A stretch of DNA of 57,257 bases from a virus (Duplodnaviria > Heunggongvirae > Uroviricota > Caudoviricetes). This document shows, in pieces, positions 28,993 to 31,900 of this stretch. The stretch's first letter is position 1. Every line of letters begins with the position of its first letter. The stretch lies in IMG/VR virus record IMGVR_UViG_637000263_000002. One strand, given 5' to 3'. The position numbers were made by a program.

Positions 28993-31900
28993 GTCAGAGT
29001 CTTTCAGTCTGCGATGATGGGAAATCCCGGAGTGACTGAAAGACGTTTAAGTTATGAATGATCGCCTTTTTTTGCAAAATTGCTGTGCAGAAATACTAAC
29101 CTTCGGGCGTGCGATCATTCATAAGCACTCTGCTTTTATTCCGATTAACTGTGGGTGGTTTGTTGGATAGAGTGCTTTCCTTACTGTATATATCGTTTCG
29201 CCCGCTTTTGCGTTTTTTTCTTTTCAAATCCCTTTCATTTCTCAGTGTAAAACTACGCCATCCGTTATTTGCGGAGGTGAGGCTATGAAATCCATGGACA
29301 AAATTTCAACGGGCATTGCCTACGGCACCTCCGCCGGCAGTGCCGGCTACTGGTTTTTGCAGTGGTTGGATCAGGTCAGGCCATCACAGTGGGCTGCGAT
29401 TGGTGTGCTGGGAAGTCTGCTTCTGGGGCTTCTGACTTATCTGACGAATCTGTATTTCAAAATAAGAGAAGACAAGCGTAAGGCTGCACGGGGAGAGTAA
29501 ATAATGAAGCATGAAGAAATGAATCAGCGATTCAATCACCTGGAAAATGAAATCACTGAGCTTAATAAAAAATTGTCGGCGTTGGTGAGTTCTGAAGATG
29601 AAAACAAACGCCGCGATGAGCATTATGCGGCGATTTACGATTACTGCCACAAAGTCGCTCACGAGACTTTTATGAAGTTTTTGCAGGAAAAGTTTTTACC
29701 GGCCGCATTGTCAGAAAAAGAGGCGGCTTACCTGCGGCCTGAGTACGTCATTACGGTTAACAGTGCCGGAGAGGAAGAGCATAAAAGTGATTTTATTGCG
29801 TCTGCACCGGATAAAGACCAGGAACCCCATCGGCCTTTCAGGGTTTCCTGTGAAGAGGGTGAGTTCGTCGTTTATGAGAACGGAAAACCTGTCCGGGCAT
29901 CGCATCATCACTGCCTGAAAATTATTAATCTCGCTATCAGATGCCTGAAAGACGAAAACACCAGAGTTATGAAACGCATTGGCCGTTGCATGGGGTATTT
30001 GCAGGTGGCGGCAGAGATTGAAGCACTTGCCAGTGGTGCAGACATGGATGCTGCGGTGCGGGAGGCTCTTCTTCGTGATTTCAATACTCCCCCTTTAAGA
30101 AAGAGCCTGATGACTGGATCCAGCCGGGGCTGACTTATCTTAAAAGGCGTATATAAGTTGGCTCGTTATTTGTTGCCGATAAATCCTGATAAATATCCAT
30201 GAGCGCAAAAATCAAATACGGCCTGTCGGCTGCTGTTCTGGCGCTGATTGCCGCAGGCGCGTCTGCTCCCCAGATACTTGACCAGTTTCTGAACGAAAAA
30301 GAGGGTAATCACACAACGGCATACCGTGATGGTTCTGGCATATGGACCATCTGTCGTGGTGCCACAATGGTGGATGGTAAGCCTGTCATACCGGGAATGA
30401 AGCTGTCGAAGGAAAAATGTGACCAGGTTAACGCTATTGAACGTGATAAGGCGCTGGCATGGGTGGAGCGCAATATTAAAGTACCTCTGACCGAACCCCA
30501 GAAAGCGGGTATAGCGTCATTTTGCCCCTATAACATTGGCCCCGGTAAGTGTTTCCCGTCGACGTTTTATAAGCGGCTGAATGCCGGTGATCGTAAGGGC
30601 GCATGCGAGGCGATTCGCTGGTGGATAAAAGATGTTGGGCGCGATTGCCGCATACGTTCAAATAACTGCTATGGACAGGTTATTCGTCGTGACCAGGAAA
30701 GCGCATTAGCCTGTTGGGGGATAGATCAATGAGCAGAGTCACCGCGATTATCTCCGCTCTGGTTATCTGCATCATCGTCTGCCTGTCATGGGCTGTTAAT
30801 CATTACCGTGATAACGCCATTACCTACAAAGAGCAGCGCGACAAAAACGCCGGAGAACTGAAGCTGGCGAACGCAACCATTACTGACATGCAGCAGCGCC
30901 AGCGTGATGCTGATGCACTCGATGCTAAATACACGAAGGAGTTAGCTGATGCGAAAGCTGAAAATGATGCTCTTCGGCGCAAGCTTGATAATGGTGGTCG
31001 GGTGCTCGTCAAAGGAAAATGCCCTGTGCCATCCTCAGCCGAAACCTCCAGCGCCTCCGGCATGGGCAATGATGCCACCGTCGAACTCTCTCCAGTTGCT
31101 GGACGAAACGTTCTCGGTATCCGGGACGGGTGAGGTAGCCTGAGTTTAACGGACACTCCTTCCTGAAATAGAATGGCATCAGAAGGAGCTAATAATGAGC
31201 AGAAAAACCCAACGTTACTCTAAAGAGTTCAAAGCCGAAGCTGTCAGAACGGTTCTTGAAAATCAACTTTCGATCAGTGAAGGCGCTTCCCGATTATCTC
31301 TTCCTGAAGGCACTTTAGGACAATGGGTTACCGCCGCCAGAAAAGGGCTCGGTACTCCTGGTTCCCGCACGCTGGCTGAACTGGAATCTGAAATTCTGCA
31401 ACTGCGTAAGGCGTTAAATGAAGCTCGCCTTGAGCGAGATATATTAAAAAAAGCAACAGCGTATTTTGCACAGGAGTCGCTGAAAAATACGCGTTAATCG
31501 AACAATGGCGACAACAATTTCCCATTGAAGCGATGTGTCAGGTATTTGGTGTATCCAGGAGCGGTTATTACAACTGGGTACAGCATGAACCCTCAGACAG
31601 AAAACAAAGTGATGAGCGGCTAAAACCGGAGATTAAGGTGGCACATATCCGCACTCGCGAAACATATGGAACCCGGCGGCTCCAGACGGAGCTGGCAGAG
31701 AATGGCATCATCGTTGGTCGTGACCGACTGGCACGTCTTCGTAAGGAGCTAAGGCTACGCTGTAAGCAGAAACGCAAGTTCAGAGCGACTACGAACCCGA
31801 ACCACAATCTGCCAGTTGCGCCAAATCTGCTGAACCAGACGTTCGCTCCTACAGCACCAAATCAGGTCTGGGTGGCGGACCTGACGTATGTTGCCACACA

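What the first reader, a model, noticed from the sequence alone, without database searches (positions are those of the whole stretch)
29504..30133. Uncharacterized 209-aa gene wedged between pinholin and SAR endolysin
The holin stop (29500) and this gene's start (29504) are 3 bp apart, and it ends 65 bp before the endolysin, so it is co-transcribed with the lysis genes. It has a coiled-coil N-terminus and several Cys/His residues but no family I can name (possibly related to the small proteins found between holin and lysozyme in some E. coli prophages). It could be a lysis regulator or a late-expressed moron.
Basis: inference. Interest (0 to 1): 0.5.

Follow-up and report, generated by a model that had tools for sequence, protein, structure and literature searches.

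The report
Frameshifted headless YdfR-family late prophage gene
The 209-codon gene between the holin and the lysozyme is real, but it is a damaged copy of an already catalogued, function-unknown accessory gene that travels with the lysis genes of E. coli, Shigella and Salmonella prophages, so it is mildly interesting as a family and ordinary as a copy.

Summary
ORF 29504-30133 (+) starts 3 nt after a P21-type pinholin and ends 65 nt before a lysozyme with a SAR-like N-terminus. It is not an orphan. It belongs to phrog_1085, a narrow enterobacterial prophage family whose full-length members have three parts: a DUF1327 (YdfR) head, a short coiled coil, and a conserved ~105-aa C-terminal domain.

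The window copy lacks the DUF1327 head, as many E. coli alleles do. It also has a 1-nt deletion in a C-run (30089-30093) that replaces the family's near-invariant tail (FKKxPxxWIxPGxxYLKxRI). That tail is still readable out of frame at 30094-30156.

The prophage is crippled by an IS600-like insertion and a ~2.5-kb deletion that truncate Rz, Rz1 and the small terminase.

In E. coli and Shigella the family always sits right after the holin. In Salmonella and related loci it sits upstream of the holin. So it is a late-operon accessory gene linked to the lysis cassette, not a core lysis protein.

No fold, Pfam, NCBIfam or defence-system match was found.

Its function is inferred only: a cytoplasmic adaptor or regulator. 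The single lead is that the fused DUF1327 head binds RNase E in published experiments. This copy is probably inactive or weakened.

The parts
29285..29500 (+). Class II (P21-type) pinholin S, 71 aa, with the dual-start motif MKSM
   Evidence: PF04971, E 5.5e-35; phrog_9876 and phrog_20, both annotated holin
29490..29497 (+). Shine-Dalgarno-like GGGGAGAG inside the last holin codons. GGAG lies 8 nt upstream of the ATG at 29504, which fits translational coupling.
   Evidence: Read directly from the sequence. A 3-4 nt gap between the holin stop and the ATG is conserved in 88 of 88 scorable related loci.
29504..30133 (+). The ORF of the finding: a 209-aa, DUF1327-less, 3'-frameshifted allele of the phrog_1085 / long-YdfR family
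29504..29695 (+). Residues 1-64: helical hairpin with a short coiled coil. The same module is reused with other C-terminal modules in relatives (P0118, PhiR12_2).
   Evidence: AF2 helices 3-27 and 31-64 with pLDDT 75-93; heptad count; mosaic matches
29696..29827 (+). Residues 65-108: acidic, predicted-disordered, mosaic linker (pI about 4.4). It is swapped or deleted between alleles.
   Evidence: pLDDT below 50; three alternative linker versions in the alignments; dN/dS about 1.2 with saturated dS
29828..30091 (+). Residues 109-196: conserved C-terminal domain with three beta strands and three helices. Core motif MKRIGRCMGYLQVAAEIEA.
   Evidence: pLDDT 80-90; invariant G160, R161, L166, Q167, A169 across 42 sequences; dN/dS 0.24
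30089..30093 (+). C5 run: site of a 1-nt deletion relative to all intact relatives (ACTCC-CCCTTT versus ACGCCACCCTTT)
   Evidence: DNA alignment. The same deletion is present in 14 near-identical loci and in six complete E. coli genomes.
30094..30156 (+). Out-of-frame remnant of the family's conserved tail, FKKEPDDWIQPGLTYLKRRI, plus the ancestral TAA stop at 30154-30156
   Evidence: Translation of 30088-30150 reads SPFKKEPDDWIQPGLTYLKRR. Tail residues K, W, P, G, Y, L, K are at least 90% conserved in the family.
30199..30732 (+). Lysozyme R, 177 aa, with a SAR-like Ala/Gly/Ser-rich N-terminus
   Evidence: PF00959, E 5.4e-24; phrog_7, annotated endolysin
30729..31133 (+). Rz i-spanin, truncated. 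It lacks the last 21 residues found in the intact copy of E. coli CFSAN029787. The embedded Rz1 lipoprotein ORF (30949-31143) has also lost its native C-terminus.
   Evidence: PF03245; comparison with L001
31131..32395 (+). IS600-like IS3-family element (orfA 31195-31497, orfB 31533-32351). It replaces about 2.5 kb: the Rz/Rz1 3' ends, ParDE, KilA-N and the 5' part of the small terminase gene.
   Evidence: BLAST against L001 and self-BLAST, which shows three copies in the window; L001 annotation

Best explanation
ORF 29504-30133 is a genuine late-operon gene of a lambdoid prophage of the Shigella flexneri / E. coli type. It is a decayed allele of the phrog_1085 family, the long form of YdfR-family proteins.

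**Architecture of full-length members (shown).**
- A DUF1327 head.
- A short coiled coil or helical hairpin.
- An acidic, disordered, mosaic linker.
- A ~105-aa alpha/beta C-terminal domain with core motif GRCMGxLQxAAEIE.
- A near-invariant tail, NPPFKxxPxxWIxPGxxYLKxR.

The protein is soluble and cytoplasmic, with no hydrophobic segment.

**State of the window copy (shown).**
- It has no DUF1327 head. Head-less forms are common and arose separately in E. coli and in Salmonella.
- A 1-nt deletion in a C-run has replaced the conserved tail with 13 unrelated residues.
- The prophage has lost the ends of Rz and Rz1 and the start of the small terminase to an IS600-associated deletion.

**Expression (inferred).** The gene is transcribed only from the Q-antiterminated late promoter. 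It is translated by coupling to the pinholin, using a Shine-Dalgarno sequence in the holin's last codons and a 3-nt spacer.

**Role (inferred).** The family is an accessory late function that moves with the lysis cassette, not a core lysis protein. Its position differs between genera, and related lysis cassettes such as DLP12 appear to lack it (recalled from memory, not checked here).

**Mechanism (weakest step, about 0.2-0.25 on its own).** The family acts as a cytoplasmic oligomeric adaptor or regulator. The coiled coil would multimerise it, and the C-domain plus tail would bind a partner. In long forms this unit is tethered to the DUF1327 head. In E. coli K-12 YdfR, that head binds the catalytic half of RNase E and co-purifies with RNA. 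The family would therefore most plausibly tune RNA turnover, or couple it to the timing of lysis, late in infection.

**This copy.** It lacks both the head and the tail, so it is most likely inactive or weakened.
For: **Family membership and architecture.**
- phrog_1085, E 1.2e-73, matching profile positions 117-288 of 296. This means everything except the head.
- P0004 (333 aa, PF07041 plus this protein) is 82% identical over 94% of the query.
- Salmonella and other distant members also have a DUF1327-like N-domain. hhalign against E. coli DUF1327 gives probability 89%, E 2.3e-6.
- Head-less forms beginning MKL-KLLEER in Salmonella parallel the MN/MK-HEEMNQR forms in E. coli.
- In L005 a separate 75-aa DUF1327 ORF follows the head-less gene. 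This split arrangement also links the two modules.

**Frameshift.** The tail residues it removes are at least 90% conserved across 42 sequences.

**Purifying selection on the C-domain.** dN/dS 0.24.

**Synteny.**
- In 88 of 88 scorable E. coli/Shigella loci the gene starts 3-4 nt after a PF04971 holin and precedes R.
- In 6 Salmonella or unassigned-host loci it lies upstream of the holin or endolysin, in the Q-to-lysis interval. The holin and endolysin families differ there: PF16080 and GH108.

**Soluble protein.** Maximum Kyte-Doolittle 19-residue window is 0.76.

**No signals separating it from S or R.**

**Defective prophage.**

**RNase E lead.** PMC13232886 reports that residues 1-72 of YdfR interact with RNase E 1-597 in a bacterial two-hybrid assay, that Rne1-598 co-elutes with Strep-YdfR, and that DNase-resistant nucleic acid co-purifies.
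Against: - The window protein has no DUF1327 head. The RNase E link rests on guilt by fusion and on a single interaction study of a different, non-overlapping protein fragment.
- Overexpressing YdfR barely changed the transcriptome in that study.
- No fold or sequence similarity to any characterised protein supports any mechanism.
- The frameshifted allele is carried unchanged by many genomes (P0001 cluster 181 members, P0003 cluster 101 members). It could retain a function without the tail, although recent common ancestry explains its spread equally well.
- Expression and translation were not measured.
Confidence: 0.6

Rival explanations
1. Dedicated lysis-timing regulator. A cytoplasmic protein made in fixed ratio with the pinholin binds the holin's cytoplasmic ends, or the SAR endolysin before its release, and delays or sharpens triggering. 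It would work like other cytoplasmic or accessory holin modulators.
For: - The 3-4 nt spacing behind the holin stop is invariant in 88 of 88 E. coli/Shigella loci, and the Shine-Dalgarno sequence lies inside the holin gene.
- In every locus examined, in all hosts, the gene is within about 1 kb of the holin or endolysin, even where those belong to different families.
- The protein is soluble and has an oligomerising coiled coil.
- PMC13232886 cites a genetic screen in which ydfR mattered for envelope integrity.
Against: - The pinholin already carries its own antiholin through the dual start MKSM.
- In Salmonella-type loci the gene is not coupled to the holin. It is separated from it by a convergent ORF.
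- It associates with unrelated holin families, which argues against a specific holin-binding partner.
- It decays often: split, truncated and frameshifted copies appear.
- No similarity to any known lysis regulator was detected.
Confidence: 0.2
2. Half of a mobile two-gene moron cassette, such as a defence, anti-defence, exclusion or toxin/antidote-like pair. The partner is a convergent ~104-aa gene (phrog_1853). The cassette has simply landed in the permissive sites around the lysis genes. The window copy is an orphaned, partner-less remnant.
For: - 27 of 97 C-domain-bearing loci carry a phrog_1853-type ORF convergent with the family gene. BLAST hit boundaries put it about 16-72 bp from the C-domain hit (about 10-20 bp ORF to ORF in L002, L006, L090 and L096). 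These loci include E. coli (S-R slot), Salmonella (Q-S interval) and an unassigned host.
- Among 50,697 phage records the partner occurs only in records that also carry the C-domain gene.
- The neighbours are classic morons: HicAB, ParE/ParD, DNA methyltransferases.
- The linker is mosaic and fast-evolving.
Against: - 63 of 97 loci, including the commonest intact 185-aa alleles, have no convergent partner. The family gene therefore stands alone under purifying selection.
- There is no PADLOC hit for the family.
- The gene has no promoter of its own and sits inside the late operon, so it would not be expressed in the lysogen as most defence morons are (inference).
Confidence: 0.15
3. The frameshift is functional. 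A programmed -1 ribosomal slip, or transcriptional slippage, at the CCCUUUA / C5 tract (30089-30097) makes two products: a 209-aa short form and a roughly 217-aa form with the conserved tail restored.
For: - The deletion created a canonical X XXY YYZ heptamer, C CCU UUA, at 30091-30097 in the zero frame (read).
- A -1 slip there would yield ...NTPPLKKEPDDWIQPGLTYLKRRI.
- A second allele (L083) has a 1-nt deletion 3-4 nt away that gives the same kind of truncated end.
Against: - There is no stimulatory structure downstream. The fold energy is ordinary: z = +0.69, with 147 of 200 shuffles folding at least as well.
- 71 of 88 related loci encode the tail in frame, so frameshifting is not a family feature.
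- L083 is a draft contig containing an N, and its deletion lies in a homopolymer, so it may be a sequencing error.
- Homopolymer deletions are the commonest decay mutation.
Confidence: 0.03

Closest known systems
Long YdfR-family proteins / phrog_1085, for example Stx2-converting phage 86 gp05 (YP_794052, 268 aa) and E. coli P0004 (333 aa)
   Same: - Homologous coiled coil, linker and C-terminal domain: 82% identity to P0004 and 58% to gp05 over residues 63-201.
- Same slot, 3-4 nt after a P21-type holin and before R.
   Different: - The window protein lacks the N-terminal DUF1327 domain and its linker.
- It has lost the conserved 20-residue tail to a frameshift.
E. coli K-12 YdfR (b1555, Qin prophage, 103 aa, DUF1327 / PF07041)
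   Same: - Occupies the same position, essQ - ydfR - rrrQ.
- It is the other half of the same ancestral three-part protein.
   Different: - There are no homologous residues in common. YdfR is the head only, and the window ORF is everything but the head.
- The published RNase E and RNA binding maps to YdfR residues 1-72 (PMC13232886). That region is absent here.
Accessory lysis regulators encoded next to holins, such as T4 RIII (cytoplasmic antiholin partner) and P1 LydB (antagonist of holin LydA). These are recalled from the literature and were not tested here.
   Same: A small, soluble, cytoplasmic protein encoded directly beside the holin and co-expressed with it.
   Different: - No sequence or fold similarity was detectable. 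Only 40 family-internal hits appeared among 1.84 billion representative proteins, and no PDB or BFVD fold match was found.
- The position relative to the holin is not conserved across genera.
Late-region morons of lambdoid and Stx prophages: stx, nanS-p, bor, Ant, toxin-antitoxin pairs and methyltransferases in the Q-S, S-R and R-Rz gaps
   Same: - It occupies the same variable gaps.
- It is mosaic, often lost or broken, and restricted to a narrow host range.
   Different: It has no promoter or terminator of its own and is tightly coupled to the holin, so it behaves as part of the late operon and not as an autonomous, lysogen-expressed moron.

Membership tests
phrog_1085 (uncharacterised phage protein family; the long YdfR form) | Significant match to the family HMM | tested here: met
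   E 1.2e-73, 249 bits. Residues 1-209 match profile positions 117-288 of 296.
phrog_1085 (uncharacterised phage protein family; the long YdfR form) | Conserved C-terminal domain core, GR[CSA]MGxLQxAAEIE | tested here: met
   MKRIGRCMGYLQVAAEIEA is present. G160, R161, L166, Q167 and A169 are invariant in 42 sequences.
phrog_1085 (uncharacterised phage protein family; the long YdfR form) | Conserved C-terminal tail, PPFKxxPxxWIxPGxxYLKxR | tested here: not met
   The tail is replaced by LRKSLMTGSSRG after a 1-nt deletion. The ancestral tail is readable out of frame at 30094-30156.
phrog_1085 (uncharacterised phage protein family; the long YdfR form) | Location in the late operon next to the lysis cassette | tested here: met
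   88 of 88 scorable E. coli/Shigella loci and 6 of 6 Salmonella or unassigned loci.
YdfR family / DUF1327 (Pfam PF07041) | Presence of the DUF1327 domain | tested here: not met
   No PF07041 hit even at E <= 1. The alignment shows the ORF begins after the head and its linker.
Holin / antiholin (P21 S family or any membrane holin) | At least one transmembrane segment, or a holin HMM match | tested here: not met
   Maximum Kyte-Doolittle 19-residue window is 0.76. There is no holin Pfam or PHROG hit.
Endolysin or spanin | Match to lysozyme, amidase, Rz or Rz1 models, or a lipobox or signal sequence | tested here: not met
   No such hits. The flanking genes carry these functions.
Cytoplasmic holin regulators (T4 RIII, P1 LydB type) | Sequence or fold homology to a characterised regulator; physical interaction with the holin | tested here: inconclusive
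   - The exhaustive HMMER search returned only family members.
- Direct comparison with RIII or LydB was not made.
- The interaction cannot be tested with these tools.
Known anti-phage defence systems (PADLOC-DB) | Match to a defence-system protein model | tested here: not met
   No hit at E <= 0.1 for the window protein, P0002 or P0004.
Programmed -1 ribosomal frameshift gene | Slippery heptamer, a downstream stimulatory structure, and conservation of the arrangement | tested here: not met
   - The heptamer C CCU UUA is present at 30091-30097.
- There is no unusual downstream structure: z = +0.69.
- 71 of 88 relatives are in frame.

The most novel reading that the evidence does not exclude
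The three-part family (DUF1327 head, coiled coil, C-domain with tail) may be a previously unrecognised class of phage late regulator. It would be produced in step with the holin and would connect the host RNA-decay machinery to the lysis programme, through RNase E bound by the DUF1327 head. Alternatively, it would directly tune pinholin or SAR-endolysin triggering. The convergent phrog_1853 gene would be its dedicated partner. The head-less, tail-less window allele would then be a natural separation-of-function variant.
Probability: 0.12. Interest if true: 0.6.

Novelty: already known. Interest (0 to 1): 0.27.

Why it matters
**Existing record.** The identical protein is already in RefSeq as a hypothetical protein (WP_001300760.1). 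The family is catalogued as phrog_1085, and its longer members are named YdfR family proteins. Nothing here is new as an object.

**What this analysis adds.**
- The family's domain map.
- The recognition that K-12 YdfR and this ORF are non-overlapping halves of one ancestral protein.
- The synteny rule: after the holin in Escherichia and Shigella, before it in Salmonella.
- A recurrent convergent partner gene.
- The finding that this copy is frameshifted and sits in an IS-crippled prophage.

**Why the family is worth a test.** The family is under purifying selection and lies at the heart of the lysis cassette of many Stx-converting and other lambdoid prophages. A real role in lysis timing or late RNA metabolism would bear on Shiga-toxin release. 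That makes an intact allele a reasonable knockout target. This particular copy is not.

Tried and rejected
**Searches that found nothing.**
- Pfam, NCBIfam and PADLOC scans gave no meaningful hit for the ORF. Weak Pfam hits (EzrA, Relaxase_C and others) reflect coiled-coil composition only.
- Scanning 11 diverse C-domains at E <= 5 gave no recurring weak family.
- Sequence search of the PDB with C-domain and DUF1327 profiles found nothing.
- The first AF2 model, of the window protein with a shallow alignment, was unusable (pLDDT 50.5).
- The afdb50 library was not available.

**Ideas rejected.**
- Metal-binding Cys/His protein: the residues are not conserved.
- Membrane protein or antiholin: no hydrophobic segment.
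- Chance ORF: rejected by homology and dN/dS.
- Programmed frameshift: no downstream structure, and relatives are in frame.
- Foreign-composition island: GC content is ordinary at 0.43-0.49.
- Structured RNA in the region: Rfam finds only tRNAs.

**Literature.** Searches for a characterised gene between S and R found nothing. The only functional paper concerns the DUF1327 head.

**Failed look-up.** P0160 is not on record in the contig index.
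Full report
**1. The observation**

ORF 29504-30133 (+, ATG, 209 aa) is present as described. The preceding 71-aa ORF (29285-29500) is a P21-type class II holin (PF04971, E 5.5e-35) with the MKSM dual start. The following ORF (30199-30732) is a phage lysozyme (PF00959, E 5.4e-24) with an Ala/Gly/Ser-rich, SAR-like N-terminus. An Rz homologue comes next (PF03245).

Three bases separate the holin stop from the ATG, and 65 bases separate the ORF's stop from R. A GGAG lies inside the last holin codons, 8 nt before the ATG. A consensus scan finds no terminator or strong promoter between S, the ORF and R, and base composition is unremarkable. Co-transcription and translational coupling are therefore reasonable inferences, but they were not measured.

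**2. It is a real gene with a family**

Pfam, NCBIfam and PADLOC give no significant hit. The PHROG library matches phrog_1085, function unknown, at E 1.2e-73. The match covers only profile positions 117-288 of 296.

A near-identical gene (99.8%) is annotated 'hypothetical protein' (WP_001300760.1) in six complete E. coli genomes. It is 100% identical in Shigella flexneri SFBU1023 and in twelve IMG/VR prophage contigs.

A search of 5.8 billion proteins returned 132 hits, and those carrying an organism name are all Escherichia or Shigella. They come in two architectures: stand-alone proteins of 185-222 aa, and proteins of 259-333 aa that carry an N-terminal DUF1327 (PF07041, 'YdfR family') domain. 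P0004 (333 aa) is 82% identical over 94% of the query.

An exhaustive HMMER profile search of 1.84 billion cluster representatives found only 40 proteins. The named ones outside Escherichia are all Salmonella enterica.

Among 41 distinct alleles, pairwise dN/dS is as follows:

| Region | dN/dS |
|---|---|
| Whole protein | 0.34 |
| C-terminal domain | 0.24 |
| N-terminal helices | 0.46 |
| Central linker (saturated, mosaic) | about 1.2 |

The ORF is therefore a bona fide coding gene of a narrow enterobacterial prophage family.

**3. Anatomy**

Alignments were combined with an AlphaFold2 model of the intact relative P0002 (89% identical; mean pLDDT 73.9). Together they give this map:

| Residues | Feature | Evidence |
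|---|---|---|
| 1-64 | Helical hairpin; residues 3-27 are heptad-like (7 of 8 a/d positions hydrophobic) | |
| 65-108 | Acidic, disordered linker; exists in at least three alternative versions | |
| 109-196 | Three short strands plus three helices (pLDDT 80-90); near-invariant core MKRIGRCMGYLQVAAEIEA | |
| Last ~20 (intact relatives) | Tail PPFKKxPxxWIxPGLxYLKxRI; K, W, P, G, Y, L, K at least 90% conserved across 42 sequences from E. coli, Salmonella and unassigned hosts | |

There is no hydrophobic segment: the maximum 19-residue Kyte-Doolittle window is 0.76.

Distant members from Salmonella and from unassigned read archives begin with a domain that profile-profile comparison identifies as DUF1327-like (hhalign probability 89%, E 2.3e-6). 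The ancestral protein therefore has three parts: head, coiled coil and C-domain.

Head-less forms arose separately in Salmonella (MKL-KLLEERVAALEK...) and in E. coli (MN/MK-HEEMNQRF...). E. coli K-12 YdfR, which lies between essQ and rrrQ in Qin, is the opposite derivative. It is the head only and shares no residues with the window ORF.

The coiled coil also occurs joined to other modules. In phage PhiR12_2 it follows a DUF1327 head with no C-domain. In P0118 it precedes an unrelated C-terminal module.

**4. The window copy is damaged**

The DNA alignment shows a single-base deletion in the window and in its near-identical relatives: ACTCC-CCCTTTAAG versus ACGCCACCCTTTAAG. It falls in the C-run at 30089-30093.

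From codon 198 the ORF reads LRKSLMTGSSRG-stop. The ancestral tail, FKKEPDDWIQPGLTYLKRRI-stop, is still readable one frame over at 30094-30156.

Tail status in the 88 related loci that could be scored:

| Status | Loci |
|---|---|
| Tail encoded in frame | 71 |
| Exactly this deletion (the window's own lineage) | 14 |
| Other frameshifts (L042, L083) | 2 |
| No C-domain (L003) | 1 |

Protein databases also hold many split or partial versions of 62-144 aa. The family therefore decays often.

The deletion happens to create a CCCUUUA heptamer. However, the downstream RNA folds no better than shuffled sequence (z = +0.69), and relatives are in frame, so I reject programmed frameshifting.

The prophage itself is defective. 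Compared with the E. coli CFSAN029787 copy, an IS600-like element at 31131-32395 replaces about 2.5 kb. That removes the last 21 codons of Rz, the end of Rz1, a ParDE pair, a KilA-N gene and the first third of the small terminase gene.

The window holds three copies of this IS and three of another, as expected for Shigella.

**5. Synteny**

In all 88 scorable E. coli, Shigella and IMG/VR loci the homologue starts 3-4 nt after a PF04971 holin and precedes R. The distance to R ranges from 36 bp to 1.2 kb.

Outside Escherichia the position differs. In Salmonella loci L090, L091 and L092, and in unassigned loci L094, L095 and L096, the gene lies upstream of the holin or endolysin. It sits in the interval after the Q antiterminator, next to HicAB or ParE genes. 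The holins there belong to the HP1-type family (PF16080) in two of these loci (L092 and L095; L090, L091 and L094 have PF04971 holins), and one locus has a GH108 endolysin.

The constant feature is therefore adjacency to the lysis cassette in the late operon, not the S-R slot. This weakens the idea of a specific partner among the lysis proteins, but it does not exclude a lysis-linked role.

A convergent ~104-aa ORF (phrog_1853, no Pfam match) directly abuts the family gene's 3' end in 27 of 97 loci across these hosts. In the 50,697-record phage collection it is found only where the C-domain gene is also present. The window lacks it.

**6. Function**

Nothing characterised resembles the protein:
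- No PDB sequence match.
- Foldseek against the PDB and BFVD gives E >= 0.02.

The only experimental lead concerns the fused head. PMC13232886 reports three results for K-12 YdfR:
- Residues 1-72 interact with the N-terminal catalytic half of RNase E in a bacterial two-hybrid assay.
- RNase E 1-598 co-purifies with Strep-YdfR.
- DNase-resistant nucleic acid co-purifies with it.

The same study found that overexpression hardly changed the transcriptome.

By domain-fusion logic, the coiled coil and C-domain act in the same process as the head. My best guess is a cytoplasmic, oligomeric adaptor or regulator of late infection that touches RNA turnover and/or lysis timing. I rate that mechanistic step at only about 0.2-0.25.

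The rivals are:
- A dedicated lysis-timing regulator (0.2).
- A two-gene moron cassette with the phrog_1853 partner (0.15).
- A functional frameshift (0.03).

The well-supported conclusions concern identity, architecture, accessory status and the degraded state of this copy.

**7. Verdict**

The object is already catalogued, in RefSeq as a hypothetical protein and as phrog_1085. Its function is unknown, and this copy is a head-less, tail-less allele in a crippled prophage.

Interest is low to moderate. The family deserves a knockout in an intact Stx or lambdoid prophage. This locus does not.

Noticed in passing
Related loci L002 3493-3807(-), L006 3654-3968(-), L090 4722-5039(-), L096 495-812(-); absent from the window: A ~104-aa ORF (phrog_1853, no Pfam or NCBIfam match) lies convergent with the family gene in 27 of 97 loci from E. 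coli, Salmonella and an unassigned host. BLAST hit boundaries put it about 16-72 bp from the C-domain hit, which is about 10-20 bp ORF to ORF in the four loci listed. In the phage collection it occurs only together with the C-domain gene. This may be a two-gene module.
   Followed up: partly
window 31131-32395 (also 5779-7043 and 20751-21987): An IS600-like IS3-family element is present in three copies. The copy at 31131 replaces about 2.5 kb of the prophage. It truncates Rz by 21 aa and Rz1 by about 9 aa. It also removes a ParDE pair, a KilA-N gene and the 5' third of the small terminase gene found in E. coli CFSAN029787. The lysis and packaging modules are therefore defective.
   Followed up: yes
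window 15562-16810, 17794-19042, 24025-25273: Three copies of a second 1249-bp insertion sequence, one of them inverted, break up the early and replication region of the prophage or prophages.
   Followed up: no
window 19578-19982 and 28588-28993: A 406-bp block carrying four tRNA genes is duplicated at 98.5% identity. ARAGORN calls them Met(CAT), Arg(TCT), Thr(TGT) and Gly(TCC); RefSeq annotates the first as Ile. The second copy sits between Q and the holin. The first suggests the remnant of a second late region upstream.
   Followed up: partly
L005 3670-3897(+) and 3902-4189(-) (E. coli 2015C-3121): In this S-R slot the head-less family gene is followed by a separate 75-aa DUF1327 ORF. A different reverse-strand 95-aa ORF comes next and gives a weak PADLOC hit to candidate system PDC-S51 (E 2.5e-5). 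In Salmonella-type loci L092 and L095 the convergent ORF is instead a DUF1883 protein.
   Followed up: partly
L083 about 2100-2130 (IMG/VR draft contig): An independent 1-nt deletion (CCTTTTAAG to CCTTTAAG) lies 3-4 nt from the window's deletion site. It gives a similar truncated end, TPLRKHLLTGCSRG, in a DUF1327-fused allele. The contig contains an N, so this may be a homopolymer sequencing error.
   Followed up: partly
L005 5381-6277 and L090 5917-6846: DNA methyltransferase genes are inserted between R and Rz in some E. coli and Salmonella relatives. Every gap in this lysis cassette can therefore accept cargo.
   Followed up: no
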